Made by a program: the position numbers and the translations under genes. Below the pieces are notes generated by a model. That model saw only the letters and a list, made by a program, of their open reading frames with translations, did not search any database and was not told the origin of the DNA. Positions 46,406 to 59,335 of a stretch of 64,000 nucleotides of DNA are shown piece by piece (positions within the stretch are counted from its first letter, which is position 1; each line of letters starts with the position of its first letter). Source of the stretch: Planctomycetota bacterium (lineage in GTDB: Bacteria; Planctomycetota; SZUA-567; H5-PLA8); assembly GCA_045863855.1 (NCBI GenBank), contig BTVV01000017.1, positions 15,278-79,277 of the forward strand. The letters are read 5' to 3'.

Positions 46406-47558
46406 TTACGTCCCGCCCGCCGTCCCCACGGCGCTCTTCTTGGGGCGCTGACTCAGCCGCCAGCGCAGGAAAGCCTCGATGAACGGATCCAACTCGCCGT
46501 CCAGCACGCCCTGCGCGTTGGTTTCCTTCAATTCCGTGCGGTGGTCGTTAACCATCGTGTACGGCTGCAAGACGTAGCTGCGAATCTGGCTGCCGAACCC
46601 AATGCGTCCTTTGTCCGCATGTGCCTGCAAGTTCTCGGCATCCTGCTTGTCCTGTTCGATCTGCTTTAGCTTGGACTTCAGGATCTGCAAGCCCAGCACA
46701 CGGTTGCGCTGCTGGCTGCGTTCGATCTGGCAGCGCACCGAGATGCCCGTCGGCAGGTGCTTGATCTGCACGCAACTCTCGACCTTGTTCACGTTCTGGC
46801 CGCCGGCGCCGCCCGAGCGGCTGGTCTTGATCTCCAGGTCCTTGTCGGGGATCACCATGTCCTTGTCGTCGTCTTCGATTTCCGGCCATACATCGGCACT
46901 CGCGAAACTCGTCTGGCGCTTGCCTTGCGCGTTAAACGGGCTGATACGGACGAGACGATGCACGCCCGCTTCGCACTGCAACAGTCCGTACGCCATTTCG
47001 CCTTCGATGCGCAGCGTCGCTGACTTGATCCCGGCTTCTTCGTTGTCGAGGCGGTCGACCAGCGTGGTCTTGAAGCCTTTTCGTTCGGCCCAACGCATGT
47101 ACATGCGCAGTAGCATCGAAGCCCAATCGCACGCTTCGGTCCCGCCTTCGCCGGCCTGAAGCGCCAAGTACGCCGTGCAGCGGTCGTGCGGTCCCTGAAG
47201 CTGCGATTGCAGTTCGAAGCGATCCACCTGCGGGGTGAGCTTCTCGAATTCGGCCTCGACCTGCTGGGCCGTGGTCTCGTCCGCTTCGGCTTCGGACAGT
47301 TCCACCAGTTCGAGCAGATCCTTGACCTGCTGTTCGATGGCCGGGAGCGGTCCGACCAGGGTTTTCAGGCCCTTCATTTCATTGACCAGCTTCTGCGCTT
47401 TTTCAGGTTGGTTCCAGAAATCGGCGCCTTCCATCAGGTGCTCGATCTCTTTCAGGCGGGCTAGGCGATGAGGTATGTCAAAGCGAGTCCCGGAGCTGCA
47501 GCAGGCGCTCACTCAGGTCCGTGATCCGGGTCCGCAAATCCGTAAAGTTGTACGCCAT
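46406..47558 (-). CDS. prfB: Peptide chain release factor 2, translated through a +1 programmed frameshift
   Basis: ATG 47558 reads [26 protein letters not shown] then CTT TGA C; the +1 frame continues DIPHRL...; SPF and GGQ motifs. Confidence 0.96.
47477..47492 (-). other. prfB +1 frameshift site
   Basis: CGGGAC TCG CTT TGA C at codons 23-27. Confidence 0.93.
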
Positions 47559-47712: not shown

Positions 47713-48408
47713 TCAGCCGTGCATTCCACGCAGGCCTGCGATTAACGGAATCAACTCTTTGAGCGCGCGAACGGTGTGGTCGCCTTCGGGCACGAAGCGT
47801 TCGTGGTAGTGCTGGTCGGGGCCGTTATCGACCCAGACCGTGCGCATGCCTTGGCGCCTTGCGCCGGGAAGTTCTTCGCTGTTGCCGTCGCCGACATAGA
47901 GGGCCTGGGAGCCCGGGACGCCCAGTCCGTCCAAGGCGTGTGCATACATGCGCGGATCGGGCTTCCGGGTGCGCAAAAGCGCCGATGAGGCTTTGACCGG
48001 CAGGTAGCGTCCCAAGGGGGTGCCGTCGAGCAGTTCGGTGGTGCCGCTGCTGCAATCGGTGACCAAGGCGAGTTTGAATCCCGCCGAGGCGAGCGCCTCC
48101 AGCGTCTCGAGCGCGTCGGGCTTGGGTTCCACGGCCTGGCGCATGAACGCGATACGCAGTTCGTAAGCACGCCGGTACTGTTCGGGTTGGGCGCGTACGC
48201 CCAGCGTATGCAAGACCGGATCGAACGCGCGCTCGCCATCGGGCGAGTCGCCGACCATGCGCGCCTGATGCAGCTTGTTCCACTCGGCGTAAAACGCGTG
48301 GGGCTCCGCTCCAAATACAGCGGCGATTTCCGCGAAGCAGCCGGCCCAGTGGTCGGGCGGTCGGTTCGGCACGAGTGTTCCAAAAAGATCGAAAAGGATC
48401 GCTTGCAT
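47713..48408 (-). CDS. HAD-superfamily hydrolase
   Basis: ILFDLFGTLV, LVTD, KPDPRMY, YVGDGNSEELPGA. Confidence 0.88.
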   Translation of the reverse strand: MQAILFDLFGTLVPNRPPDHWAGCFAEIAAVFGAEPHAFYAEWNKLHQARMVGDSPDGERAFDPVLHTLGVRAQPEQYRRAYELRIAFMRQAVEPKPDALETLEALASAGFKLALVTDCSSGTTELLDGTPLGRYLPVKASSALLRTRKPDPRMYAHALDGLGVPGSQALYVGDGNSEELPGARRQGMRTVWVDNGPDQHYHERFVPEGDHTVRALKELIPLIAGLRGMHG

Positions 48409-48412
48409 GGCT

Positions 48413-48667
48413 TCAGCTATCGGCCTCTTGCTCGTCCTGCTTGAGCAGGTGGATTCGTTCTTCGACCTCGGCACCGGAGGGCATCTGAGCCGTACGCGCC
48501 GGAACGAAGACGCGTTGCCCGTGCTTGATCACGATTTTACCGTTGGCCTGAAGCGCGGGGAGATCGGAACAATCGAACATGCGCCCGCAATTGGGGCAGA
48601 TCGCTTTGCAGTGATGCTCGTCGAGCACCGAACCGCAGACTTCGCAGAGGAAGATCAGTTCCGTCAT
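48413..48667 (-). CDS. Small zinc-finger protein
   Basis: CEVCG...HCKAICPNCG..FDCSD; AGGAG upstream. Confidence 0.7.
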   Translation of the reverse strand: MTELIFLCEVCGSVLDEHHCKAICPNCGRMFDCSDLPALQANGKIVIKHGQRVFVPARTAQMPSGAEVEERIHLLKQDEQEADS

Positions 48668-48818: not shown

Positions 48819-49817
48819 ATGCTTCGATGGTTGCTGGTACTTTCAATTCTCATTCCTGCTCAGATATCGAAGGCCAGTGAGCCGGTGAGTGTGCGAGTCG
48901 GGGGCAAAGCCATACGCGGCGAATTAATTCGCGTAAGCGACAAAGAAATCGTGATGAAAGTCGGTGGTCGTGAGCAAACCTTCCCAGTCATGATGGTCGA
49001 GTCTCGCGACTACGTGGCTTGCGCCAAAAGCGTGCTGGATCCCAAGAACGCGGAAGCGCACCACAAGCTGGGGCTCTGGTGCCGTGAGAAAGGCTTGAAG
49101 GAAGAAGCCGCCGACTTGCTGGCGCACGCCGCGCGGCTGGATCCTTCGCGCTTCGGAGAGGCCCCAACCACGTCGACCGCGCTGGCCCCTTCCAGGAAGA
49201 AGGCGACGGCTGACGAGTTGATCAAGGCTTTGGGCCACGAAAACGGTGAGACGCGCGATGCCGCCGCCGAAGCCCTGCGCCAGATGGGCGAGGCCGCACT
49301 GCCGGCGCTGAAGGCGGCTCAAACGCAGACCGAAGATCTGGAAGTCAAGACGCGTACGACCGCGCTGATCAAGGAATTAACCGTCGGACAGGCGTTGGCC
49401 AAACTCGCGCCGGCGGACCGCGCCATCGTGGAGCTTCCGTTCGGCGAAGACGCTAAGTTCGATGGGATGAACCTGTCTTTCCTGGCGCGCGGGCATGGCT
49501 CGTGCACCGTGATCGACATGGGTCCATTCCGGATCGCGATTCGCGAGCAGCCGTACAATGGGCAGTCTTCGGGGCATTTGACGATCGGCGGCGGCGGCCG
49601 CAGTTCGTCGCAAGCCGGGAGTTTAAAGGTGGAAGGCGGCGACGGAAAAGCGAGCGCGTCGTTCCGCGGCATAGCCTTCAAGGTCGATTCGACCGGCTTG
49701 CATGTGGACGGGCGCGACATTCCGCACGACCAAGGCCGCCAGGTTATCTTCTTGTCAGGTAAGGGCGCTTTCGAAGTCGCCGTGCCGCTGGACAAGGCGC
49801 CGGCCCCTGAGAAATAG
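48819..49817 (+). CDS. Secreted hypothetical protein with TPR/HEAT-like helices
   Basis: Signal peptide; AHHKLGLWCREKGL; LIKALG..TRDAAAEALRQMGEAALPAL. Confidence 0.75.
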   Translation: MLRWLLVLSILIPAQISKASEPVSVRVGGKAIRGELIRVSDKEIVMKVGGREQTFPVMMVESRDYVACAKSVLDPKNAEAHHKLGLWCREKGLKEEAADLLAHAARLDPSRFGEAPTTSTALAPSRKKATADELIKALGHENGETRDAAAEALRQMGEAALPALKAAQTQTEDLEVKTRTTALIKELTVGQALAKLAPADRAIVELPFGEDAKFDGMNLSFLARGHGSCTVIDMGPFRIAIREQPYNGQSSGHLTIGGGGRSSSQAGSLKVEGGDGKASASFRGIAFKVDSTGLHVDGRDIPHDQGRQVIFLSGKGAFEVAVPLDKAPAPEK

Positions 49818-49836
49818 CGCGCGAGTCGGAATCCAT

Positions 49837-49866
49837 TTGACGCGCGCACCCGTGCGCGGGTATGTT
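49837..49866 (+). promoter_or_regulatory. Candidate sigma70 promoter for the SAM riboswitch operon
   Basis: TTGACG-N18-TATGTT, about 25 nt upstream of P1. Confidence 0.55.
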
Positions 49867-49891
49867 GCTGCCTACAACTGAATATCGGTCC

Positions 49892-50058
49892 GCTTATCGA
49901 GAGTGGCTGAGGGACAGGCCCTTTGAAGCCACAGCATCCCGGGACCGAACGACGGACGGCTGATACGCCCCTGTCGCTCCCCTTGGGTGCTAACTCCTGC
50001 GATGCCAAGCGGCCGTACCGGTAATGACCGGAACGGCCGTAAGGATCGAGAGATAAGC
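49892..50058 (+). ncRNA. SAM-I (S-box) riboswitch aptamer with extended P3 and P4
   Basis: P1 GCTTATC/GATAAGC; GAGAG J1/2; kink-turn P2 GTGGCTGAGGGACAGGCCC..TGAAGCCAC; P3 AGCATCC..GGTGCT; J3/4 AACTCCTG pairs with loop CAGG. Confidence 0.92.
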
Positions 50059-50115
50059 AGGTGCCGCGAGCCATAGGCCGGATTTGTCGTCCCGGCCGTA
50101 GAGCCCCTCGCATGC

Positions 50116-50162
50116 GCCTCTCCTCTCGTCGCACGGACCGCGGCCGGAGAGGTTTTTTGTTG
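50116..50162 (+). terminator. Intrinsic terminator of the riboswitch expression platform
   Basis: GCCTCTCC...GGAGAGGT followed by TTTTTGTT; its 5' strand CCTCTC can alternatively pair with GAGAG next to the P1 3' strand. Confidence 0.7.
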
Positions 50163-50259
50163 CCTCCCCGAAACCGTGGCCGTCGATTTCGCTCCGCGTT
50201 CTCGCGGGCGGACCCTGTGTGTTCGAACCACCAGGCTGTCGGATGAGGGAGGACGATTC

Positions 50260-51543
50260 ATGCCCGCGAAGTTCATCAAGAGCCTCAAGTGCCGCGAGTG
50301 CGGCCGCCAGTACGACCTGAAGCCCGTGCACATCTGCGAGTACGACTTCGGACCGCTGGAAGTCGACTACGATTACGACGCGATCAAGAGCGTGCTGTCG
50401 CGCGAGGTGATCGAGTCGCGCCCGAAGAACATGTGGCGCTATGCCGAATTCCTCCCGCTGGCGCAGGATCCGTCCGTCGGCAAGAACACCGGCTACACCC
50501 CATTGATCCGCGCCGAACGGCTGGGCAAGGAGCTGGGGCTCAAGAATCTCTGGGTCAAAAACGACGCGGTCAATTACCCCACGCTCTCGTTCAAGGACCG
50601 CGTGGTCAGCGTGGCGCTCTCGAAGGCCAAGGAGTTCGGCTTCGACACGGTCGCGTGCGCGACCACGGGGAACCTGGGCAATTCGGTGGCCGCGCAGTCG
50701 ATCCGCGCCGGCCTCGAATGCTACATCTTCATGCCCGCGAATCTCGAACAGGGCAAGGTGGTCGGGACGAGCATTTACGGCGTCCATGTCGTCGGCATCA
50801 GCGGGAATTACGACGGCGTCAACCGGCTCTGCAGCGAGATCGGAAACAAGTTCGGCTGGGCCTTCGCGAACATCAACATGCGCCCGTATTACGCCGAAGG
50901 GTCGAAGACCTTCGGGATGGAAATTTGCGAGCAACTGGGCTGGAAGGCGCCCGACCACGTGATCGTGCCGATGGCCGGCGGCAGCTTGATCTGCAAGATC
51001 CGCAAAGCCGTCGACGAGATGTACAAGACGGGGCTGATCTCGAGCAACCACACCAAAGTTTACGGCGCGCAGGCCGCCGGCTGTTCGCCCATCAGCACCG
51101 CGGTCAAGAAGGGCTGGGAACTCTTCAAGCCCGTCAAGCCCGAGACGATCGCGCGCTCCATCGCCATCGGCAATCCCGCCGACGGCTTCTACGCGATCAA
51201 AAATATCCGCGACAGCGGCGGACACGCGGAAGACGTCACCGACGAAGAACTCGTCGAAGGCATCAAGCTGCTCGCGCGGACCGAAGGCATCTTTACCGAG
51301 ACGGCCGGCGGCGTGACCGTGGCGGTGACGAAGAAGCTCGTCGAACAGGGCCGGATTCCCGCCGACGATTGCGTCGTCATCAGCGTGACGGGGAACGGGT
51401 TGAAGACGCTCGAAGCCGTGACCAACGCCGTGCCCCGCCCGGACATTATCGAGGCGAAGCTGGCGGACTTCGAAGTGCTCGTCGAGAAGATCAAGACGCG
51501 CGGTAAGCACCCGGCGGCTCCGGTGGCGGCAGGCGGAAATTAA
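50260..51543 (+). CDS. Threonine-synthase-like PLP enzyme (probably a sulfur-incorporating paralogue)
   Basis: N-terminal CRECG..C zinc ribbon, GYTPL, PTLSFKDR (PLP Lys), TTGNL, RPYYAEGSKT, IARSIAIGNPADG, EGIFTETAGG, TGNGLK; GGAGG RBS. Confidence 0.9.
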   Translation: MPAKFIKSLKCRECGRQYDLKPVHICEYDFGPLEVDYDYDAIKSVLSREVIESRPKNMWRYAEFLPLAQDPSVGKNTGYTPLIRAERLGKELGLKNLWVKNDAVNYPTLSFKDRVVSVALSKAKEFGFDTVACATTGNLGNSVAAQSIRAGLECYIFMPANLEQGKVVGTSIYGVHVVGISGNYDGVNRLCSEIGNKFGWAFANINMRPYYAEGSKTFGMEICEQLGWKAPDHVIVPMAGGSLICKIRKAVDEMYKTGLISSNHTKVYGAQAAGCSPISTAVKKGWELFKPVKPETIARSIAIGNPADGFYAIKNIRDSGGHAEDVTDEELVEGIKLLARTEGIFTETAGGVTVAVTKKLVEQGRIPADDCVVISVTGNGLKTLEAVTNAVPRPDIIEAKLADFEVLVEKIKTRGKHPAAPVAAGGN

Positions 51544-51602
51544 CGCCGGTCGTCGGTGAACGGTAAACAGAGAACGGTAACGAATAATCAAAGGAACTAC
51601 AC

Positions 51603-52166
51603 ATGGCGATTAAGGTTCGAATTCCCGAAGCCCTGCGCACACTCACGGCGGGCGCGGACTTGGTGCAGGTCCAGGCCGCGACGGTGCAGGAGATGCTCGA
51701 CGCACTGGAAGCGCAGCATAAGGGCTTCAAAGAACGCATTTTGGACGAGAAGGGCCAGGTGCGGCGCTTCGTTAATATCTTCGTCAACGAAGAGGACATT
51801 CGCTTTCAGGATAACCTCACCACGGCGCTGCCCGACGGGACGGAAGTCTCGATCCTGCCCGCCGTCGCCGGCGGCGCGGCCAAGGCCAAGAAAGTTCCCG
51901 TCGCCGCGAAGCTGCCCGACGGGACCAAGGTTGTGCGCGTGTACCTTACGTTCGACGAGAAGACCACGGTGCGGCCGATGATCTACGAACTGATCAAGAA
52001 GTTCGACGTGGTGCCGAACATCCGCACCGCCTCGTGCCAGGAAAACATGGCGATCATGAGCCTCTCGCTGTCGGGCCCCGAAGACGCTCTGGACCGTTCG
52101 ATCCAGTGGTTGCGCAAAGAAGGTGTGCGGGTGGACCCGGTGGAAATGAATGTGGTGGAGCCGTGA
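51603..52166 (+). CDS. ThiS/MoaD/CysO-like sulfur carrier fused to a C-terminal NIL domain
   Basis: Residues 1-91 VRIP..LR..T....RRFVNIFVNEEDIRF....T.L.DG.EVSILPAVAGG; residues about 108-187 V.LTF......PMIYELIKKFDVVPNIRTA......M.L.LSG....LDRSIQWLRKEGVRVDPVE. Confidence 0.88.
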   Translation: MAIKVRIPEALRTLTAGADLVQVQAATVQEMLDALEAQHKGFKERILDEKGQVRRFVNIFVNEEDIRFQDNLTTALPDGTEVSILPAVAGGAAKAKKVPVAAKLPDGTKVVRVYLTFDEKTTVRPMIYELIKKFDVVPNIRTASCQENMAIMSLSLSGPEDALDRSIQWLRKEGVRVDPVEMNVVEP

Positions 52167-52278
52167 GCCGGAAGCGTGATGCGTAATCCGTGAAATCGGC
52201 AAAGCGCGAGACCATTCAGGTTGCGTTTCACGCCATACGATTCAGAGACCGTGGCCGCCAGGAAGAACGAGACTCCCC

Positions 52279-53328
52279 ATGTCACTCGAACGCTATAACC
52301 GCCAAGTCCTGCTTCCGTTCATCGGGGAAGAAGGGCAGCAACGGATCCTCGATTCCACGGCCGTCGTGATCGGCTGCGGCGCGCTGGGTACGGTCATTGC
52401 CAACGTCCTGGCCCGGGCGGGGGTGGGGCACCTCAAGATCATCGACCGGGATTTTGTGGAGGAGAGCAACCTGCAGCGCCAGGTGCTTTTCGACGAAGCC
52501 GATTGCCGCGAGAACTTGCCCAAGGCCGTCGCCGCCGAGCGCAAGGCGAAGCAGATCAACTCCTCGATCAAAATCGAAGGCATCGTCAGCGACGTGAACC
52601 CGACGAATATCGAAGAGTTCATCAAAGGTGCGACGGTGGTGGTGGACGGCGCGGACAATTTCGAGACGCGCTTTGTCCTCAACGATGCTTGCGTGAAGCA
52701 CGGGATTCCGTGGATTTACGGCGCGGCGGTGGGGTCGGTCGGTCTCAGCATGACCGTGATTCCCGGCAAGACGCCGTGCTTGCGCTGCATCTTCGAGACC
52801 GCGCCGCCGCCGGGCATGACGCCCACGTGCGACACCGCCGGCGTGCTGGGTTCGGTCACGGGCCTGATCGGGAATTACGAAGCCGCCGAGGCGATCAAGA
52901 TCTGCGCCGGGCGGATGGACAACCTCAATACGAAGCTGTTCCAGATCGACCTCTGGACCGGCGAGCAGCACGCCTTCAAGATCGCCCGGGCGCGCGAAGT
53001 CGCGGACTGCCCGTGCTGCAAGCGCCGCCACTTCGAGTTCCTCGAAGGGCAGGGCGCGAGCAACACCACGAGCCTGTGCGGGCGCAACGCGGTGCAGATC
53101 AATCCGCGCGGCGGCGTGAAGGTGAACCTCGACGAACTCGCCGGGCAGCTCCGCGCTTCCAGCGACGTGAAGAACCTGACCGCGAACAAGTTTCTGCTCA
53201 AATTCAACGCGCCCGGAGGCGACGAAGGGCTCGAGATCACCGTCTTCCCCGACGCCCGCGCCATCGTTAAAGGAACCAAGCAGGTTCCCGTGGCGAGGAC
53301 GGCGTACGCGAAGTACATCGGCGCTTGA
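52279..53328 (+). CDS. ThiF/MoeB family adenylyltransferase (E1-like)
   Basis: RYNRQ, IGCGALG, DRDFVEESNLQRQ, DNFETR, CLRC, TCDTAGV, CPCC. Confidence 0.94.
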   Translation: MSLERYNRQVLLPFIGEEGQQRILDSTAVVIGCGALGTVIANVLARAGVGHLKIIDRDFVEESNLQRQVLFDEADCRENLPKAVAAERKAKQINSSIKIEGIVSDVNPTNIEEFIKGATVVVDGADNFETRFVLNDACVKHGIPWIYGAAVGSVGLSMTVIPGKTPCLRCIFETAPPPGMTPTCDTAGVLGSVTGLIGNYEAAEAIKICAGRMDNLNTKLFQIDLWTGEQHAFKIARAREVADCPCCKRRHFEFLEGQGASNTTSLCGRNAVQINPRGGVKVNLDELAGQLRASSDVKNLTANKFLLKFNAPGGDEGLEITVFPDARAIVKGTKQVPVARTAYAKYIGA

Positions 53329-53408
53329 GCTAAAAGAATCGGCCGCGCCGGATGCCGGATGGGCGGCTGTTGCCGAGTACGCCTTACGCTTTGCCTTCGA
53401 GGTCCACC

Positions 53409-54572
53409 ATGATTTACTTCGACAACGCCGCGACCAGTTTCCCCAAGCCGCCCGAAGTCTTCGCGGCGATGCGGCAGTGCGCCGACGAAGCCGGCGGCAA
53501 TCCCGGACGCAGCGGACATCGCATGGCCACGGGCGCCGAAGCGCTGCTCGACGAGGCGCGCAATGCGCTGGGTAAATTCTTCGGCGTGAAGGACCCGCAC
53601 CGCGTCGTCTTCACGCTCAATTGCACCGATGCGCTGAACATGGCGATGAAAGGCTTTCTCGACGCGCAGGCCGGCGCGCATGTCGTCAGCAGCATGGGCG
53701 AACACAACAGCGTCAACCGCCCGCTGCAGCACGCGCACGACAGCAAACGACTGGAACTGCACCGCGTCAGGCTCGACGAGGCCGGAAGCTGGACGGTCGA
53801 TGAGGTATTGGACGCGGTCACGCCCAAGACGAAGCTGGTGGCGCTGACGCATTGCAGCAACGTGATCGGCACGGTCACGCCGGTGGCCGAACTGGGTCGC
53901 GCGCTGCGCGCGAAGCATCCCCATGTCCGTTACCTGGTCGATGCCGCGCAGACCGCCGGGATCGTGCCACTGGATTTGGAGGCCGCGTGCATCGACTTCC
54001 TGGCCTTCCCCGGGCATAAGGCGCTCTTTGGGCCCCCCGGCACCGGCGCGCTGCTGCTGGGCGAGCGCGTGACGCCGCAGGATCTGCATGCGTGGCGCGA
54101 GGGCGGCACCGGCGGCGACAGCCGTTCGCCGCACCAGCCGGAGCAGTTCCCTTATTACCTGGAAGGCGGGACGCCCAATACCTACGGCATAGCGGGACTG
54201 CTGGCGGGTTTGCGCGTGGTCCAGAAAGCCGGCCCCGGGAAGATTCTCGCGCACGAACAGGCGCTGCAGGCGCGGCTGATCGAGAAGCTCAGCGCCGACG
54301 AACGCTTTACGGTCTTCGGGACGCGCGACGCGAAGCGCAAGGCCGGCGTACTCTCGATCGCGATCCGCGAACGCGATGCCGCGGAGACCGCGACGATCCT
54401 CGACAGCGCTTTCGAGATCTGCGTCCGTCCGGGGTTGCACTGCGCGCCGTATACGCACGAGGCGCTGGGCACCTTCGCGCAAGGCGGGACGATCCGGCTC
54501 TCGCCTGGATTCTTCAATACGCTCGACGAATGCGACCGGGTGGTCTCCGCGCTTCAAGAGATCGCTTCGTAA
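53409..54572 (+). CDS. Cysteine desulfurase (class V aminotransferase)
   Basis: IYFDNAATSFPKP, EHNSV, DAAQTAG, PGHK, EGGTPN, RPGLHCAP (persulfide Cys). Confidence 0.92.
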   Translation: MIYFDNAATSFPKPPEVFAAMRQCADEAGGNPGRSGHRMATGAEALLDEARNALGKFFGVKDPHRVVFTLNCTDALNMAMKGFLDAQAGAHVVSSMGEHNSVNRPLQHAHDSKRLELHRVRLDEAGSWTVDEVLDAVTPKTKLVALTHCSNVIGTVTPVAELGRALRAKHPHVRYLVDAAQTAGIVPLDLEAACIDFLAFPGHKALFGPPGTGALLLGERVTPQDLHAWREGGTGGDSRSPHQPEQFPYYLEGGTPNTYGIAGLLAGLRVVQKAGPGKILAHEQALQARLIEKLSADERFTVFGTRDAKRKAGVLSIAIRERDAAETATILDSAFEICVRPGLHCAPYTHEALGTFAQGGTIRLSPGFFNTLDECDRVVSALQEIAS

Positions 54573-54649
54573 CGGTCACGCGTATCGATCCTGTCGAGCC
54601 GGTATCGCGGGCGATTGGCCCGCAGGTTCACGAGGCGGTTCGTCTTTCC

Positions 54650-54892
54650 ATGTCCGACGAGAAACCCGCCGCACCCTCCGCCGATCCCGGATATTCAGGC
54701 TGCATCGGGATGCTGCTCTCGCTCACCTTCCTCGCCATGGTCTGGATGGCCGTCTGCCTGGTCCTCTTTGCGTACGTGAGCCAGGAAGCGGCGGCGGCGG
54801 CATTTTTCGTGCCCCCCGTCGGCCTGATGCTGTGGGCGATGTTCACCAAGCCTTCGGGTGGCGGCGACGGCCCTGCCAAGCCTCCCAAGTGA
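54650..54892 (+). CDS. Small two-TM membrane protein
   Basis: MSDEKPAAPS...GCIGMLLSLTFLAMVW...; hydrophobic hairpin. Confidence 0.6.
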   Translation: MSDEKPAAPSADPGYSGCIGMLLSLTFLAMVWMAVCLVLFAYVSQEAAAAAFFVPPVGLMLWAMFTKPSGGGDGPAKPPK

Positions 54893-55054
54893 TTCTCTAA
54901 CTTTAAGCTACGCAACGTATTGAAGAAATTTTCGGGCGCGAGTATCCTCTTTTTCGCGAGCCGTTAGGATGCATTCGCTTCGTACCGATACCGAGAACGA
55001 GTGACCCGGCGCGATCGCGTCGGCGCGCATGAATTAAGGAAGCTGCTCCCGATC

Positions 55055-56203
55055 ATGAAAGCGCTCTGCATACTGGGCAGTACCGGCTCGATCGGCGTCA
55101 GCACGCTGGACGTGGTGCGGCGCTTCCCCGACCGCTTCCGCGTGCGCAGCCTGGTGGCGCATCGCAACGTCGAGAAGCTGGTCGAGCAGGTCCGCGAGTT
55201 TCAGCCCGCGCGGGTGGGGCTGGTGGACGACGCCAAGCTGCCCGAACTAAAGGCCGCGCTGAAAGGGTATAAAGGCGAGATTCTGGGCGGCGCGCAGTCG
55301 GCCATCGCGCTGGCCGAGGAACCCGAAAGCGGCTACGTCGTCTCGGCAATCGTGGGCGCGGCGGGCCTCTTACCGACGCTCGCGGCATTGAAGAAGGGCA
55401 AGGAAGTCGGGATCGCCAACAAAGAGCCGCTGGTGATGTGCGGGCCGTTGATGCGCAAGGCCGCCGACGAGTTTGGGGCGACGATTCTGCCCATCGACAG
55501 CGAGCATTGCGCGGTTTTTCAGTCGGCGCGCGCAGGCGCGGCCAAAGAGTTGCGCAAAATCGTCCTCACCGCCAGCGGCGGGCCGTTCCGAAAGACACCG
55601 GCCGAAAAACTTAAGACCGCCACCAAGGCCGATGCGCTTAAGCATCCCACTTGGAACATGGGCGCGAAGATCACCATCGACAGCGCCACGCTGATGAACA
55701 AGGCGCTGGAGATCATCGAGGCGCATTTCCTGTTCGATCTGCCCTACGAGGGGATTCACGTCTGGGTGCACCCGCAGTCCATCGTCCACGCGCTGGTGGA
55801 ATTCACCGACGGGTCGGTCGTCGCGCAGTTGGGCCTGCCGGATATGCGCCTGCCGATTCAGTACGCGCTGACCTATCCCGAGCGGCTCGACGGCGGCCTG
55901 CCGATCCTGCCCATCGAACGGATGAAGGAACTGACCTTCGAGGAACCCGATCACGAGCGCTTCCCGTCGCTGCAGTTTGCGTATCGCGCGGGGAAGGCGG
56001 GCGGGACGGCCCCGGCGGTACTGAACGCGGCCAACGAGGAAGCGGTGAGCCTCTTCCTGCAAGAGAAGGTTCCGTTCGTGCGGATCTTCGATTTGGTCCG
56101 TGAAGCGCTGGATAAGCACAGCGTCCAACCGATGGACACGCTGGAGACGGTGCTCGCCGCCGACCGTTGGGCGCGCGACTTCGTGCGGCATCAGGTAGAG
56201 TGA
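55055..56203 (+). CDS. dxr: 1-deoxy-D-xylulose-5-phosphate reductoisomerase
   Basis: LGSTGSIG, ANKE, PIDSEH, TASGGPF, HPTWNMGAKITIDSATLMNK, NAANE. Confidence 0.97.
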   Translation: MKALCILGSTGSIGVSTLDVVRRFPDRFRVRSLVAHRNVEKLVEQVREFQPARVGLVDDAKLPELKAALKGYKGEILGGAQSAIALAEEPESGYVVSAIVGAAGLLPTLAALKKGKEVGIANKEPLVMCGPLMRKAADEFGATILPIDSEHCAVFQSARAGAAKELRKIVLTASGGPFRKTPAEKLKTATKADALKHPTWNMGAKITIDSATLMNKALEIIEAHFLFDLPYEGIHVWVHPQSIVHALVEFTDGSVVAQLGLPDMRLPIQYALTYPERLDGGLPILPIERMKELTFEEPDHERFPSLQFAYRAGKAGGTAPAVLNAANEEAVSLFLQEKVPFVRIFDLVREALDKHSVQPMDTLETVLAADRWARDFVRHQVE

Positions 56204-56315
56204 ACGGATTGGGCGCCGCAACGCGCTCGTTTCATGCACAAGAGCAGCCCGCGCTTGGCGGCGGGCGCTTTTACGGATAAACCGCTACCCGCTTAGATTG
56301 GGTCTGGGAGAAGGT

Positions 56316-58019
56316 ATGTTGGCATTGGGCGATACGGCGGAAGCACTGGCTTTAGGCATAAAGCTTTTTTTCGTGCCTGATGATTTCTCAACCCTTTACG
56401 GCTGGTTGGGCGTCATCTTCGGATTCTCCTCGCTGATCTTCGTGCACGAGATGGGTCACTTCCTCCTCGCCAAATGGAACGGCGTGCGGGTGCATGTCTT
56501 CTCGATCGGGATGGGGCCGTACGTACTTTCGTACACCAAGGGCGAGACGGTGTACGTGCTTTCGTTGGTGCCCATCGGCGGTTACGTAAAAATGGCGGGG
56601 CAGGACGATCTGCGCCCCGATCTGCCCGAGAACAAAGACCCGCACGACTACCGCAACAAGAAGCCCGGCCAGAAAGCCGCGATCCTGGCCGCCGGCGCAA
56701 TCTTCAATCTGATCTACGCCATGGTTCTCTTCACGCTGGCCTTCTACCAAGGCGTGGAAATGAAGACGCCGCGGGTGGGGGACGTAGTCCCCGATTCGCC
56801 CTTGGCGCAGGCCGAAGCCCTTGCCGAAGGCGACACCTACGTGCCGCGCCCCTTGCAGAAGGGCGATTTGATACTTTCGGTCAATGGCGAAGCCGTGAAG
56901 AGCGACATGGAAGTGCTGCTGGCCGCCGCCGGATCCGGCCCCGGCAACCCCGTCTGGATCACTTACGCGAGACCCCGTTACGGCGCCGACCAGCCCGAGC
57001 GCGATCCGGTTCGGGTGATTACGCGCAACGACGCGCGCTTCGGCGCGGCGACCATCGGCTGGTTCCCGTTCCTGGTCGAGCACCAATACCGCCTGGGCTT
57101 CGATGCGCCGATGCGCGTCTCGGTGGCCAGCGACCCGAAGGAAGATTCGCCCGCGGGCAAAGCGGGAATCAAGAAGGGTGACGTGCTCGTGTCGGTGGAC
57201 GGCGAAGCGCTGACCAATGTGCCGCAGTTGATGAACAAGATCCGTGCCGCCGAAGGTAAGCCGCAACAATTCGCCGTCATGCGCGAAGGCGAAACGCTCG
57301 ATATGACCATCGCGGCCGAAGAGATCACCGAGGGCGACAAGAAGGTCTACTTGGTCGGCCTTCCTTTGAATGTGTGCCATCCGGTGCTCAAGATCGATCC
57401 GGCCAGCGAAGCGTACGCGCTGGGCCTTCGCGAGGGGTACTGGCTCCGGGAAGTGAACCCTAACCGCGACGAGACCGCCATCACGCTCGCCTTTTACGAT
57501 CCGCTCGATCCGGAACGGACCGCTCAGAGCATCCGGATCAAGAACGACGGTTCGGGCCCGGAAGACATGGCATTAAGCATCTACCTGGAGCAGATGCATG
57601 TCGTGAAGGCCGACGGGGTTTTTGAGGCGCTTGGGATGGCCTGGGACGATCTGGTCCGGCACTCCGTCTCGGTTTTCACCATCTTGCGCGGCCTGTTGAC
57701 GGGCAACGTGAGCCCCAAGTCGCTCTCCAGCGCCGTGGGAATCGGCAAGGCGACTTTCGACGTCTCGATGGACTCGTCTTTCATGAAGTACCTTTGGTTC
57801 ATCGCGTTCATCTCGGTCAATCTGGGTGTCTTGCAGTTCGTGCCGATTCCGCTGCTCGACGGTTGGCACCTGCTGATGATTCTGGTGGAGAAGTTGAAGG
57901 GCGGCCCGGTGGCGCCGCGGATTCAGGAAGGGTTCCAGTACGTGGGGCTCTTCATCATTCTGAGTTTGTTGATTTACGCCACCAAGAACGACTTGATGCG
58001 CATCTTCGGTCAACCGTAA
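56316..58019 (+). CDS. rseP: RIP metalloprotease RseP (site-2 protease with PDZ domains)
   Basis: HEMGH, FSIGMG, PIGGYVKM, PDZ (DSPAGKAGIKKGD), PIPLLDG; follows dxr. Confidence 0.92.
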   Translation: MLALGDTAEALALGIKLFFVPDDFSTLYGWLGVIFGFSSLIFVHEMGHFLLAKWNGVRVHVFSIGMGPYVLSYTKGETVYVLSLVPIGGYVKMAGQDDLRPDLPENKDPHDYRNKKPGQKAAILAAGAIFNLIYAMVLFTLAFYQGVEMKTPRVGDVVPDSPLAQAEALAEGDTYVPRPLQKGDLILSVNGEAVKSDMEVLLAAAGSGPGNPVWITYARPRYGADQPERDPVRVITRNDARFGAATIGWFPFLVEHQYRLGFDAPMRVSVASDPKEDSPAGKAGIKKGDVLVSVDGEALTNVPQLMNKIRAAEGKPQQFAVMREGETLDMTIAAEEITEGDKKVYLVGLPLNVCHPVLKIDPASEAYALGLREGYWLREVNPNRDETAITLAFYDPLDPERTAQSIRIKNDGSGPEDMALSIYLEQMHVVKADGVFEALGMAWDDLVRHSVSVFTILRGLLTGNVSPKSLSSAVGIGKATFDVSMDSSFMKYLWFIAFISVNLGVLQFVPIPLLDGWHLLMILVEKLKGGPVAPRIQEGFQYVGLFIILSLLIYATKNDLMRIFGQP

Positions 58020-58033
58020 AGGGGAGGGCATCG

Positions 58034-59335
<1,302 letters not shown>

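What the first reader, a model, noticed from the sequence alone, without database searches (positions are those of the whole stretch)
49837..54572. SAM-riboswitch-controlled protein-thiocarboxylate operon: candidate non-canonical homocysteine/methionine route
Seen: promoter, SAM-I aptamer, terminator, then four co-directional genes (threonine-synthase-like enzyme, sulfur carrier-NIL, ThiF/MoeB, cysteine desulfurase with RxGxHC). Established: SAM-I switches control Met/Cys/sulfur genes, not threonine synthesis. Desulfurase plus E1 generates carrier thiocarboxylates. CysM/CysO in Mycobacterium use such a carrier with O-phosphoserine. From memory and unverified, a ThrC-like enzyme plus carrier making homocysteine from O-phosphohomoserine has been reported in Streptomyces (MetM/MetO). 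Inference: the 'threonine synthase' performs gamma-replacement on O-phosphohomoserine, and the operon carries its own sulfur-mobilising enzyme, giving cysteine-to-homocysteine transfer without cystathionine. A PVC version with a linked desulfurase and NIL fusion appears undescribed to me.
Basis: partly seen in the sequence, partly recalled or inferred. Interest (0 to 1): 0.8.

Follow-up and report, generated by a model that had tools for sequence, protein, structure and literature searches.

The report
SAM-controlled MetM/MetO homocysteine operon, planctomycete variant
A SAM-sensing RNA switch controls four genes that most likely make the methionine precursor homocysteine by a protein-carried-sulfur route published in 2024; here the sulfur carrier is made fused to a small methionine-sensor-like domain.

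Summary
A SAM-I riboswitch (Rfam 56.5 bits, cut-off 44.4) and a terminator-like hairpin precede four co-directional genes. They encode a ThrC-like PLP enzyme, a ThiS/CysO-like carrier fused to a NIL domain, a ThiF-type E1 without rhodanese, and a class-V cysteine desulfurase.

The ThrC-like protein is 50-54% identical to the proteins at 29 of 29 Streptomyces/Kitasatospora riboswitch-ThrC-like-ThiS loci, and only 25% identical to this genome's second ThrC.

The genome has HomK and MetH. I found no MetA, MetX or DUF39. In 201 sampled genomes of the phylum, 0 of 24 with the MetM-like gene have MetX or MetA.

So this is a known pathway in a new variant:
- The carrier's Gly-Gly is internal, followed by a disordered linker and the NIL domain, so it must be cut, probably by an unlinked JAMM protease.
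- NIL accompanies the system in 47 of 80 loci from many phyla, but in none of the Streptomyces loci.
- The desulfurase follows ThiF in only 5 of 16 family genomes.

This scan has noted MetM/MetO-plus-NIL operons on other DNA many times (39 findings).

The parts
49837..49866 (+). sigma-70-like promoter candidate (TTGACG-18-TATGTT)
   Evidence: 9 of 12 matches, but 1 site found against 0.9 expected, so weak. RNA-library contigs of two runs from one study begin at 49857 and 49883, a weak hint of a 5' end here.
49891..50062 (+). SAM-I riboswitch aptamer (RF00162) with an extra hairpin inserted in P4
   Evidence: 56.5 bits against gathering score 44.4, reported as 49891-50030. Alignment A4 places the 3' strand of P1 at about 50053-50062. 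It is the only RF00162 match in the genome.
50116..50158 (+). terminator-like hairpin plus U6 (expression platform)
   Evidence: stem GCCUCUCC...GGAGAGG, -21 kcal/mol, followed by UUUUUU. The termination mechanism is inferred. The antiterminator pairing (GAGAG of the P1 3' strand with CUCUC of the terminator's 5' arm) was read from the sequence and not tested.
50260..51543 (+). metM-like gene: ThrC-family PLP enzyme, predicted O-phosphohomoserine / carrier-thiocarboxylate homocysteine synthase, with an N-terminal 4-Cys zinc-ribbon-like motif
   Evidence: It is 50-54% identical to the Streptomyces riboswitch-linked orthologues, at most 39% to other ThrCs of the phylum, and 25% to the genome's own second ThrC.
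51603..51875 (+). metO/CysO-like ThiS domain of the carrier, ending in the invariant PAVAGG (Gly90-Gly91)
   Evidence: Closest solved structures are CysO chains 4n6e_B and 3dwg_C (46% identity, target-normalised TM 0.91-0.93).
51876..51914 (+). Ala/Lys-rich linker after Gly-Gly, variable in length and predicted disordered; the presumed cleavage region
   Evidence: residues 89-103 have pLDDT below 50. Searches show the linker varies among homologues.
51915..52166 (+). NIL domain fused to the carrier (includes the stop codon)
   Evidence: PF09383, 44-46 bits; superposes on the C2 domain of the MetNI methionine importer (3tui_C, rmsd 0.8 A over 75 columns). It is the only NIL domain in the genome.
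52279..53328 (+). ThiF/MoeB-type E1 adenylyltransferase, long form (about 100 extra C-terminal residues, no rhodanese)
   Evidence: PF00899 254.8 bits; NF009123 344 bits over the full length; the C-terminal part has no Pfam hit. Conserved in 16 of 17 family genomes.
53352..54572 (+). class-V cysteine desulfurase (TIGR01977 type, RPGLHC active-site motif); the true start is possibly 53409
   Evidence: 387.5 bits against a cut-off of 377. It follows ThiF in 5 of 16 family genomes and appears in 0 of 80 loci from other phyla.

Best explanation
This is a four-gene operon for making homocysteine by the MetM/MetO protein-thiocarboxylate route. A transcription-terminating SAM-I riboswitch switches it off when SAM is plentiful.

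Proposed flow. Steps 1 to 8 are all inferred from homology and gene context; nothing was measured.
1. HomK, encoded elsewhere in the genome, supplies O-phosphohomoserine.
2. The carrier is translated as a precursor: a ThiS/CysO-like domain, then Gly-Gly, a disordered linker and a NIL domain.
3. A JAMM protease cuts after Gly-Gly. The candidate is the unlinked 149-residue Mec-like protein on contig C125.
4. The ThiF-type E1 adenylates the freed C-terminus.
5. The operon's class-V desulfurase takes sulfur from cysteine as a persulfide and passes it on. This replaces the rhodanese domain of Streptomyces MoeZ and yields the carrier thiocarboxylate.
6. The ThrC-like enzyme (MetM) replaces the phosphate of O-phosphohomoserine with that sulfur.
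7. Homocysteine is released, probably again by the JAMM hydrolase.
8. MetH methylates it to methionine.

The released NIL domain most likely binds MetM as a small-molecule-sensing or adaptor subunit. That is the least certain step.
For: **Riboswitch.**
- The aptamer scores above Rfam's cut-off and is the genome's only SAM-I element.
- SAM-I elements lie upstream, on the gene's strand, at 36 of 80 related loci from many phyla (nhmmer with a 6-sequence HMM).
- Rfam itself confirmed 5 of 7 ThrC-like loci tested.

**MetM identity.**
- All 29 of 29 Streptomyces/Kitasatospora loci fetched carry SAM-I, then a ThrC-like gene (50-54% identical to the window protein), then ThiS (47-53%). This matches what PMC12172450 says of S. 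albulus metM/metO.
- In a tree, 77 MetM-like rows, including 16 actinobacterial ones, separate from 21 other ThrCs on one branch (SH-aLRT 86; 90 without the actinobacteria).
- In 201 phylum genomes, identity to the window protein is bimodal: 24 genomes at 52% or more, the rest at 39% or less.

**Pathway logic in this genome.**
- Second ThrC: C11, 215.7 bits.
- HomK: 486.5 bits against a cut-off of 446.3.
- MetH: 1155 bits.
- No match found for MetX, MetA, GHMP ThrB or thrB_alt, nor for DUF39.

**Phyletic pattern.**
- 0 of 24 MetM-like genomes have MetX or MetA, against 57 of 177 others with MetX (Fisher p 0.0004; relatives are not independent).
- 24 of 24 have a ThiS-type match.
- Class-mates in family f2 have the C11-type ThrC plus MetX and no MetM-like gene.

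**Carrier.**
- PA[VI]AGG is invariant, and stand-alone homologues end exactly at GG.
- Closest solved structures are CysO chains.
- The linker is disordered.

**Processing precedent.**
- GapMind lists Mec as needed for MetO maturation.
- 12 of 29 Streptomyces MetO tails end GGC.
- Many other carriers have 1-7 residues after GG.
- The genome has a JAMM protein with an intact HSHPx7SxxD motif. It is 37% identical to the JAB inside a deltaproteobacterial MetM cluster.
- In G072 a JAB follows MetM, ThiS-NIL and ThiF directly.

**NIL.**
- It is found in 47 of 80 loci, fused in at least 8.
- Complex prediction of MetM with NIL gave weak support: score 0.32, best of 3 controls 0.01. That mark was reached by 116 of 157 solved complexes and 2 of 215 mismatches. 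At 0.60 or under, only 18 of those 157 and both mismatches reached it. The runs agree in at least 96% of contacts, and the partner's pLDDT is at least 81.

**Operon.**
- The same four genes plus riboswitch occur in G066 and G091.
- RNA-library contigs of a roughly 95%-identical strain run 49857-52950, 49883-53373 and 53079-54334.
Against: **No biochemistry.** Nothing here was measured.

**Comparison with the characterised system.**
- S. albulus MetM itself was not compared. I compared other Streptomyces species, which I judge orthologous by synteny. The primary paper could not be read.
- The branch separating MetM-like from other ThrCs has only SH-aLRT 86-90, from a quick search with long branches among the outgroup rows.
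- The window protein passes the ThrC equivalog model with a higher score (284 bits) than the C11 paralogue (215.7 bits).

**An alternative route is not excluded.**
- One PF01053 enzyme exists at C4 (325 bits; best NCBIfam matches are methionine gamma-lyase and O-succinylhomoserine sulfhydrylase, all below their cut-offs). In principle it could sulfhydrylate a homoserine ester.
- The genome is 93.9% complete, so absences are not proven.

**The desulfurase link is loose.**
- It follows ThiF in only 5 of 16 family genomes, and not in G207 of the same genus.
- It is in 0 of 80 loci from other phyla.

**Processing and NIL are unproven.**
- The JAMM gene is unlinked, and cleavage is untested.
- G065, which has a fused carrier, shows no JAB over the cut-off (that genome is 89% complete).
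- The NIL-MetM prediction is only weak support. The tool itself says such a pass is more often wrong than right unless the pairing was already likely.

**The RNA evidence is limited.** RNA-library contigs can contain DNA and do not show a single transcript. One of them (X16) continues upstream of the promoter.
Confidence: 0.8

Rival explanations
1. The route works without a carrier thiocarboxylate. The MetM-like enzyme takes sulfide, or a persulfide directly from the desulfurase. The uncleaved ThiS-NIL protein is a regulatory or scaffolding subunit, not a sulfur carrier.
For: - The Gly-Gly is internal, and no protease gene lies in the operon.
- Some MetM-like loci show NIL but no detectable ThiS, for example L090. 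Earlier scan notes e1-1255382 and e1-2859548 describe MetM-plus-NIL pairs without a carrier (I did not check them).
- The complex prediction weakly favours NIL touching MetM.
Against: - PA[VI]AGG is invariant in fused and free forms alike, which makes sense only if the C-terminal glycine is used.
- An E1 whose sole known chemistry is C-terminal adenylation sits next to the carrier in 16 of 17 family genomes.
- The linker is disordered and variable.
- A Mec-like JAMM is present, and one is in-operon in G072.
- ThiS-ThiF fusions joined through GG (L041, L092) show the same precursor logic.
Confidence: 0.1
2. The ThrC-like enzyme is an ordinary or redundant threonine synthase. The carrier, E1 and desulfurase serve another thiocarboxylate-dependent process (molybdenum cofactor, thiamine, tRNA thiolation or cysteine synthesis) and merely share a transcript with it.
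For: - TIGR00260 scores it at 284 bits, above its cut-off.
- Its best solved relatives are threonine synthases (6cgq, 2zsj).
- The carrier matches SAMP1/MoaD models.
- The desulfurase is not always linked.
Against: - SAM-I control recurs at 36 of 80 loci across phyla and at 29 of 29 Streptomyces/Kitasatospora loci.
- A separate ThrC that is widespread in the phylum exists in this genome.
- I found no other homocysteine route.
- The gene is complementary with MetX across 201 genomes.
- ThiS follows the ThrC-like gene within 300 nt at 53 of 80 loci.
- GapMind notes that MetM is often misannotated as threonine synthase.
- Other ThiF and ThiS paralogues exist in the genome for other pathways (C27, C196, C116).
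Confidence: 0.04
3. The operon is functional, but the main source of homocysteine is the PF01053 enzyme on contig C4, acting on O-phosphohomoserine as a sulfhydrylase. The riboswitch operon is then a back-up or a condition-specific route, for example under sulfide limitation.
For: - A full-length PF01053 protein is present (325 bits). It is similar to O-succinylhomoserine sulfhydrylases (284 bits) as well as to methionine gamma-lyase (313 bits).
- HomK supplies O-phosphohomoserine.
Against: - It reaches no curated NCBIfam cut-off, and its best match is a degradative lyase.
- It is not behind the genome's only SAM-I riboswitch.
- I found no acyl-homoserine-forming enzyme.
Confidence: 0.06

Closest known systems
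MetM/MetO/Mec/MoeZ O-phosphohomoserine route to homocysteine, Streptomyces albulus (Hasebe, Adachi, Maruyama, Hamano 2024, Appl Environ Microbiol 90:e0124724). I did not read the paper. I know it from GapMind 2026, PMC13759103 (Table 2 and S1D text passages), and from PMC12172450 (passages).
   Same: - A ThrC-homologous enzyme, 50-54% identical to the Streptomyces riboswitch-linked orthologues.
- A ThiS/CysO-like carrier gene directly downstream.
- A SAM-I riboswitch upstream.
- A ThiF-type E1 and a JAMM hydrolase encoded in the genome.
   Different: - The carrier is fused through its Gly-Gly to a linker and a NIL domain. Streptomyces MetO ends GG or GGC, and 0 of 29 Streptomyces/Kitasatospora loci show NIL within 2.5 kb.
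- The E1 is in the operon and has no rhodanese domain. GapMind names MoeZ as the Streptomyces sulfur ligase, and the NCBIfam MoeZ model (NF005902) is described as an adenylyltransferase/sulfurtransferase.
- A class-V cysteine desulfurase is in the operon.
- The JAMM gene is unlinked.
CysO/CysM/Mec/MoeZ cysteine synthesis of Mycobacterium tuberculosis (structures 3dwg, 3dwm)
   Same: - The carrier domain is structurally closest to CysO (46% identity, target-normalised TM 0.91-0.93).
- The logic is the same: E1, thiocarboxylate, PLP enzyme, JAMM hydrolase.
- Related loci in other phyla carry CysM-like PALP genes beside the MetM-like gene.
   Different: - The PLP enzyme here is ThrC-like, not CysM-like.
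- The predicted substrate is O-phosphohomoserine, not O-phosphoserine.
- The operon is under SAM control.
HcyS/HcyD/HcyF/MetY thiocarboxylate-dependent methionine synthesis of Wolinella succinogenes (Krishnamoorthy and Begley 2011; seen only as reference 34 of PMC5764234, details recalled)
   Same: - Homocysteine sulfur comes from a ubiquitin-like carrier.
- That carrier must first be trimmed by a metalloprotease.
   Different: - That system uses a MetY-type (PF01053) sulfhydrylase on O-acetylhomoserine.
- Here the enzyme is ThrC-like, and I found no MetX or MetA.
DUF39 plus NIL/ferredoxin homocysteine synthesis from aspartate semialdehyde (Methanosarcina MA1821/MA1822; Desulfovibrio; PMC5764234, passages read)
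   Same: A NIL domain takes part in homocysteine synthesis.
   Different: - There is no ferredoxin domain on the NIL here.
- I found no DUF39 in this genome or in 5 family members.
- Homoserine phosphate is the predicted intermediate here.
C2 (NIL) domain of the MetNI methionine ABC importer (3dhw, 3tui, 3tuz, 3dhx)
   Same: The predicted fold of residues 105-182 superposes on it (rmsd 0.8-1.3 A over 75-77 columns, 23-24% identity). From memory, that domain binds methionine for trans-inhibition.
   Different: - Here it is attached to a sulfur carrier, not to an ATPase.
- Ligand binding was not tested.

Membership tests
MetM/MetO homocysteine pathway (Hasebe 2024) | ThrC-homologous PLP enzyme of the MetM clade, distinct from housekeeping ThrC | tested here: met
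   It is 50-54% identical to the proteins at 29 of 29 Streptomyces/Kitasatospora riboswitch-ThrC-like-ThiS loci. It lies on their side of the tree (SH-aLRT 86). Identity is at most 39% to other ThrCs of the phylum and 25% to the genome's own C11 ThrC. S. albulus MetM itself was not available.
MetM/MetO homocysteine pathway (Hasebe 2024) | ThiS/MoaD-type carrier (MetO) with a Gly-Gly end, encoded beside metM | tested here: met
   A ThiS domain lies 59 nt downstream, and PAVAGG is invariant. The Gly-Gly is internal (residues 90-91 of 187), so a free end requires cleavage, which was not shown.
MetM/MetO homocysteine pathway (Hasebe 2024) | SAM riboswitch upstream of metM (stated for S. albulus in PMC12172450) | tested here: met
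   RF00162 at 56.5 bits against 44.4. The same arrangement occurs at 29 of 29 Streptomyces/Kitasatospora loci.
MetM/MetO homocysteine pathway (Hasebe 2024) | MoeZ-type sulfur ligase (E1 with a sulfurtransferase/rhodanese part) | tested here: not met
   The E1 domain is present (PF00899, 254.8 bits), but there is no rhodanese. The C-terminal 105 residues have no Pfam hit, and the MoeZ model scores 159 bits against a cut-off of 647. An adjacent cysteine desulfurase may fill that role (inference).
MetM/MetO homocysteine pathway (Hasebe 2024) | Mec (JAMM) hydrolase | tested here: met
   A 149-residue Prok-JAB protein on C125 scores 68.6 bits and has the HSHPx7SxxD motif. It is 37% identical to a JAB inside a MetM cluster. 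It is unlinked, and its role is inferred.
MetM/MetO homocysteine pathway (Hasebe 2024) | Supply of O-phosphohomoserine and use of homocysteine | tested here: met
   HomK (TIGR02535) scores 486.5 bits against a cut-off of 446.3. MetH scores 1155 bits against 1010.85.
MetM/MetO homocysteine pathway (Hasebe 2024) | Enzyme activity: O-phosphohomoserine plus MetO-thiocarboxylate gives homocysteine | not testable with these tools
   Needs biochemistry or genetics.
SAM-I riboswitch (Rfam RF00162) | Score at or above the curated gathering threshold over the whole model | tested here: met
   56.5 bits against 44.4, model positions 1-108. The core is invariant in alignment A4.
SAM-I riboswitch (Rfam RF00162) | Expression platform (terminator) that responds to SAM | tested here: inconclusive
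   A hairpin plus U6 is present, but its energy is not exceptional (z -1.13), and switching was not tested. RNA-library contigs read through it.
Threonine synthase ThrC (TIGR00260 equivalog) | Score over the curated cut-off | tested here: met
   284 bits against 167.1. However, GapMind states that MetM is often misannotated as threonine synthase, so the model does not tell the two apart.
Threonine synthase ThrC (TIGR00260 equivalog) | Being the genome's threonine-forming enzyme | tested here: inconclusive
   A second ThrC exists at C11. Its orthologues (55% identity or more) occur in 34 of 201 phylum genomes, 20 of them with MetX. Activity was not tested.
CysO/CysM cysteine synthesis | CysM-type O-phosphoserine sulfhydrylase beside the carrier | tested here: not met
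   There is no CysM/CysK-like gene in the operon. Such genes do occur in related loci of other phyla.
DUF39 plus NIL/ferredoxin homocysteine synthesis | DUF39 (PF01837) protein and a ferredoxin domain on the NIL protein | tested here: not met
   PF01837 was not found in 6 of 6 family genomes, this one included. The NIL here is fused to ThiS, not to ferredoxin.

The most novel reading that the evidence does not exclude
The NIL domain is a conserved third component of the MetM homocysteine synthase system. It would be a methionine-, homocysteine- or SAM-sensing subunit that docks on MetM.

In this lineage it would be delivered in 1:1 stoichiometry with the sulfur carrier, by JAMM cleavage of a ubiquitin-like precursor. 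That would be a bacterial counterpart of eukaryotic ubiquitin-fusion precursors. It would give the pathway protein-level feedback on top of the riboswitch.
Probability: 0.25. Interest if true: 0.7.

Novelty: new variant of a known kind. Interest (0 to 1): 0.45.

Why it matters
**Annotation.** The MetM/MetO route was described only in 2024. MetM is still annotated as threonine synthase: every name a source gave the relatives says so. Recognising MetM fills the methionine gap in this planctomycete family, where I found no MetA, MetX or DUF39.

**Open questions that are directly testable.**
- What does the NIL protein do? It travels with MetM in 47 of 80 loci across many phyla, but it is missing from the characterised Streptomyces system.
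- Are bacterial sulfur carriers routinely made as fusion precursors (ThiS-NIL, ThiS-ThiF) that a JAMM protease must release?

**Modularity.** The sulfur-donor module is interchangeable across lineages. The NCBIfam MoeZ model implies a sulfurtransferase part in actinobacteria. TusA and DsrE occur in some other loci. A class-V desulfurase occurs here.

Tried and rejected
**Literature.**
- Reading Hasebe et al. 2024 (PMC11497804): not held. What it says about distribution, NIL or desulfurases is unknown to me.
- No paper found linking NIL to a sulfur carrier. One search ('NIL domain', 'sulfur carrier', 'homocysteine', at least 2 of 3 terms) listed 15 of 49 papers. Only two listed papers hold 'NIL domain': Price 2018, which I read and which concerns DUF39/ferredoxin, and a coenzyme M paper I saw only in the search listing.
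- 'NIL' has 0 occurrences in the GapMind supplements.

**Comparison with the characterised protein.**
- There is no MetM structure in the PDB; only ThrCs appear.
- The first attempt to reach Streptomyces through an actinobacterial-looking MetO (P0210) returned 80 loci, 79 titled as Actinomycetota (mostly Acidimicrobiia) and one as Acidobacteriota; none was from Streptomyces.
- A degenerate high-GC DNA pattern then found Streptomyces loci.

**Homoserine kinase.** Neither the GHMP type nor the APH type was found (the best hit is an IspE-like protein). HomK resolved this.

**ThiF C-terminal domain.** No Pfam hit at E up to 1. The Atlas gave only unnamed clusters, best score 0.90. No function assigned.

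**Operon signals.**
- The terminator scan found no + strand site inside or after the operon.
- Folding 54560-54700 gave nothing (z +0.41), so the 3' end is undefined.
- No methionine-rich leader peptide lies between the riboswitch and metM, unlike what earlier scan notes describe in Chloroflexota. I read this from the sequence.

**RNA data.**
- Parts of the operon had no cover in run X19.
- Several joints in X16 and X19 were reported at short side lengths of 20-40 letters. I treat them as other organisms or repeats.
- Run X16's long contig continues upstream of the promoter, so it gives no 5' end.

**Earlier scan notes.** Searches by place (relatives) and by 'fused carrier desulfurase ThiF Planctomycetota' returned nothing.

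Full report
**What is there.** Rfam finds one family in the whole 64-kb window: a SAM-I riboswitch at 49891-50030 (+), 56.5 bits against a gathering score of 44.4. It is also the only RF00162 match in the 6.93-Mb, 93.9%-complete genome (an nhmmer scan with my own HMM agrees). When I aligned the leader with five homologous leaders, the invariant 3' strand of P1 (GAGATAAGC) fell at about 50053-50062, behind an extra hairpin inserted in P4. The aptamer is therefore about 30 nt longer than Rfam's alignment shows.

A hairpin at 50116-50152 followed by U6 looks like the terminator (-21 kcal/mol). Its energy is not unusual for this GC-rich sequence (z -1.13), and the simple scanner missed it. The promoter-like TTGACG-18-TATGTT at 49837-49866 is no better than chance by count: 1 found, 0.9 expected.

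Four + strand genes follow:
- A ThrC-like PLP enzyme, 50260-51543.
- A 187-residue protein with a ThiS domain (residues 5-91) and a NIL domain (residues 112-177), 51603-52166.
- A 349-residue ThiF-type E1, 52279-53328.
- A class-V cysteine desulfurase of the TIGR01977 type, 53352-54572. Its true start is probably 53409, because homologues outside the genus align only from residue 20.

**The pathway is known.**
- GapMind 2026 (PMC13759103; Table 2, S1D text and reference list, read as passages) lists MetO (sulfur carrier), Mec, MoeZ and MetM. It describes MetM as a 'MetO-thiocarboxylate-dependent homocysteine synthase' of Streptomyces, after Hasebe, Adachi, Maruyama and Hamano 2024. [quoted passage not shown]
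- PMC12172450 (passages) adds that S. albulus metM has an upstream SAM riboswitch and an adjacent metO.
- The primary paper is not held.

**Is the window's enzyme a MetM?** No solved MetM structure exists; the best PDB relatives are threonine synthases. I therefore fetched actinobacterial loci with a degenerate DNA pattern for a motif conserved in the family.
- All 29 of 29 Streptomyces/Kitasatospora loci among the 80 fetched show the published arrangement: SAM-I element, then a ThrC-like gene, then ThiS. The proteins are 50-54% and 47-53% identical to the window's.
- Tree rows were: the window protein; 12 of the 120 listed database relatives; 48 of the 80 loci (I dropped 32 partial or near-duplicate rows); 16 actinobacterial rows; 20 lower-scoring ThrC-family matches from the phylum; and the genome's own second ThrC.
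- In that tree the 77 MetM-like rows sit on one side of a branch and the 21 other ThrCs on the other (SH-aLRT 86; 90 without the actinobacteria). This was a quick search with long outgroup branches, so the support is moderate.
- In 201 sampled genomes of the phylum, identity to the window protein is sharply bimodal. 24 genomes have a match at 52% identity or more (435 bits or more); everything else is at 39% or less (256 bits or less).
- The MetM-like clade carries four N-terminal cysteines (invariant or nearly so) and the SFKDR lysine motif.

**Does the genome need it?**
- A second ThrC lies on C11 (480 residues, 215.7 bits over the 167.1 cut-off). It is only 25% identical to the window protein.
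- Orthologues of that C11 type (55% identity or more) occur in 34 of 201 phylum genomes. 20 of them have MetX. They include class-mates (family f2) that have MetX and no MetM-like gene. The C11 type therefore looks like the housekeeping threonine synthase.
- I found no match for MetX, MetA, GHMP ThrB or the alternative ThrB, nor for DUF39.
- The genome does have HomK (TIGR02535, 486.5 bits against a cut-off of 446.3). GapMind 2026 shows HomK replaces homoserine kinase. It also has MetH.
- Across the 201 genomes, 0 of 24 MetM-like genomes have MetX or MetA, against 57 of 177 others with MetX and 1 with MetA. 24 of 24 have a ThiS-type match, against 46 of 177. Fisher p values are 0.0004 and 5e-13, but relatives are not independent, so these overstate the case.
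- One caveat: a PF01053 enzyme on C4 (325 bits) resembles both methionine gamma-lyase and succinylhomoserine sulfhydrylases, below every curated cut-off. I cannot exclude that it makes homocysteine.

**The carrier is a precursor.**
- PA[VI]AGG is invariant in 54 fused homologues and in stand-alone relatives that end exactly at GG.
- In the window protein, GG (residues 90-91) is followed by an Ala/Lys-rich linker and the NIL domain.
- AlphaFold2 models two confident domains (pLDDT about 90) joined by a disordered stretch at residues 89-103 (pLDDT below 50; pTM 0.46).
- Foldseek places the first domain on CysO (4n6e_B, 3dwg_C; 46% identity). It places the second on the C2/NIL domain of the MetNI methionine importer (3tui_C, rmsd 0.8 A over 75 columns).
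- An E1 can adenylate only a free C-terminus, which is established chemistry of ThiF/MoeB enzymes. The fusion therefore has to be cut. That step is inferred.

The inference has precedents in my own data:
- GapMind lists Mec as needed for MetO maturation.
- 12 of 29 Streptomyces MetO genes end GGC.
- Many carriers in other phyla have 1-7 residues after GG.
- Two loci fuse ThiS through GG directly to ThiF.

The genome encodes a 149-residue JAMM protein with an intact HSHPx7SxxD motif on C125, unlinked to the operon. It is 37% identical to the JAB inside a deltaproteobacterial MetM/CysM cluster. In G072 a JAB follows MetM, ThiS-NIL and ThiF directly. Of the five sampled genomes with a full-length fused carrier, four have a Prok-JAB over the cut-off. 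G065 does not.

**NIL is the conserved extra.** Among 80 loci from Sumerlaeota, Thermodesulfobacteriota, Binatia, NC10, Chloroflexota, Aquificota, Nitrospirota, Brocadiales and others:
- ThiS is present in 68, and within 300 nt downstream of the ThrC-like gene in 53.
- NIL is present in 47, fused to ThiS in at least 8.
- ThiF is present in 38.
- The desulfurase is present in 0.

Neighbours include CysM-like PALP genes, JAB, TusA, DsrE and Rrf2. 71 of the 104 database clusters listed for the carrier hold both domains. None of the 29 Streptomyces/Kitasatospora loci shows NIL within 2.5 kb.

A complex prediction of MetM with the NIL domain gave weak support: score 0.32 (runs 0.31, 0.32, 0.35), best of 3 controls 0.01. 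The mark was reached by 116 of 157 solved complexes and 2 of 215 mismatches. At 0.60 or under, only 18 of those 157 and both mismatches reached it. The runs agree in at least 96% of contacts, and the partner's pLDDT is at least 81. I take this as a lead, not a finding.

**E1 and desulfurase.** The E1 has no rhodanese, and its last 100 or so residues match nothing named. The four-gene order with the riboswitch recurs in G066 and G091.

Within the family:
- 16 of 17 genomes have the long E1.
- In 10 of those 16, a fused ThiS-NIL carrier lies next to it in the fetched locus.
- In only 5 of those 16, from four genera, does the desulfurase follow it. It does not in G207 of the same genus.

The desulfurase is therefore an optional add-on. 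That it feeds this carrier is a reasonable but unproven inference.

**Expression.** Assembled contigs from three metatranscriptome libraries (two studies) cover the operon. They come from a strain about 95% identical (144 differences in 3092 letters).
- 49857-52950 (X15).
- 49883-53373 (X17).
- 49700-52585, continuing upstream (X16).
- 53079-54334 (X16), which bridges ThiF and the desulfurase.

These contigs run through the terminator and across three gene junctions. Such libraries can hold DNA, and a contig is not a transcript, so this is only consistent with co-transcription.

**Verdict.** This is a member of the published MetM/MetO pathway in a variant form: a fused carrier-NIL precursor, an in-operon rhodanese-less E1, and an optional desulfurase.

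This scan has reported MetM/MetO-plus-NIL operons on other DNA many times: 39 findings hold the search words. They include planctomycete versions with an E1 and a desulfurase.

Noticed in passing
L041:2040-3131 and L092:8247-9329: ThiS is fused through its Gly-Gly directly to a ThiF E1 (363 and 360 residues) in an NC10 locus and an Elusimicrobiota locus beside MetM-like genes. This is another carrier precursor that would need cleavage.
   Followed up: partly
L239-L310 (29 Streptomyces/Kitasatospora loci): MetO ends GGC in 12 of 29 loci and GG in 17 of 29. This explains why the pathway's Mec is called a [MetO]-L-cysteine hydrolase.
   Followed up: yes
own genome C196:1787-2551 and C196:3043-3411: A second ThiF-like gene (27% identical to the operon's E1) lies about 500 nt from a weak Prok-JAB match (27.6 bits). 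It may be a separate ubiquitin-like conjugation or defence module.
   Followed up: no
own genome C4:85533-86408 and C4:92870-94096: A match to the homocysteine-binding N-terminal part of MetH (162 bits, one TGA inside) lies about 6 kb from the genome's only strong PF01053 enzyme. This may be a methionine salvage or degradation cluster.
   Followed up: no
window 50260-50350 (residues 11-29 of the ThrC-like protein): Four cysteines (C11, C14, C26, C29) are invariant or nearly so across 61 MetM-like sequences, suggesting a zinc-ribbon N-terminal extension. Its role is unknown.
   Followed up: partly
PDB 1v8c (Thermus thermophilus 'MoaD related protein', 165-168 residues): Foldseek aligns the whole two-domain carrier model to this solved two-domain MoaD-related protein over 187-188 columns, with poor rmsd (14.6-15.1 A) and 17-19% identity. 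It may be a solved example of a carrier-plus-extra-domain fusion.
   Followed up: no
L363 (G207, same genus) and L365, L367-L375: In 11 of 16 family genomes the desulfurase is not within 1.5 kb downstream of the long ThiF. The spacer between the NIL end and the ThiF start grows from about 115 nt to 450-840 nt in some. I did not look at what lies there.
   Followed up: no
window 46406-47512 (-), 55001-56203 (+), 56298-58019 (+), 57794-59335 (+): The flanking ORFs look like housekeeping genes. The gene at 55001-56203 is Dxr by Pfam. The others I read from the translations without a family search: release factor 2, an RseP-like site-2 protease, and a GGDEF protein with a PilZ-like tail. None is related to sulfur metabolism.
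   Followed up: no
window 47713-48474 (-): A HAD-family hydrolase (TIGR02253-like, 77.9 bits, below the cut-off) lies two genes upstream of the operon on the opposite strand. I found no evidence that it is a ThrH-type homoserine phosphotransferase.
   Followed up: partly
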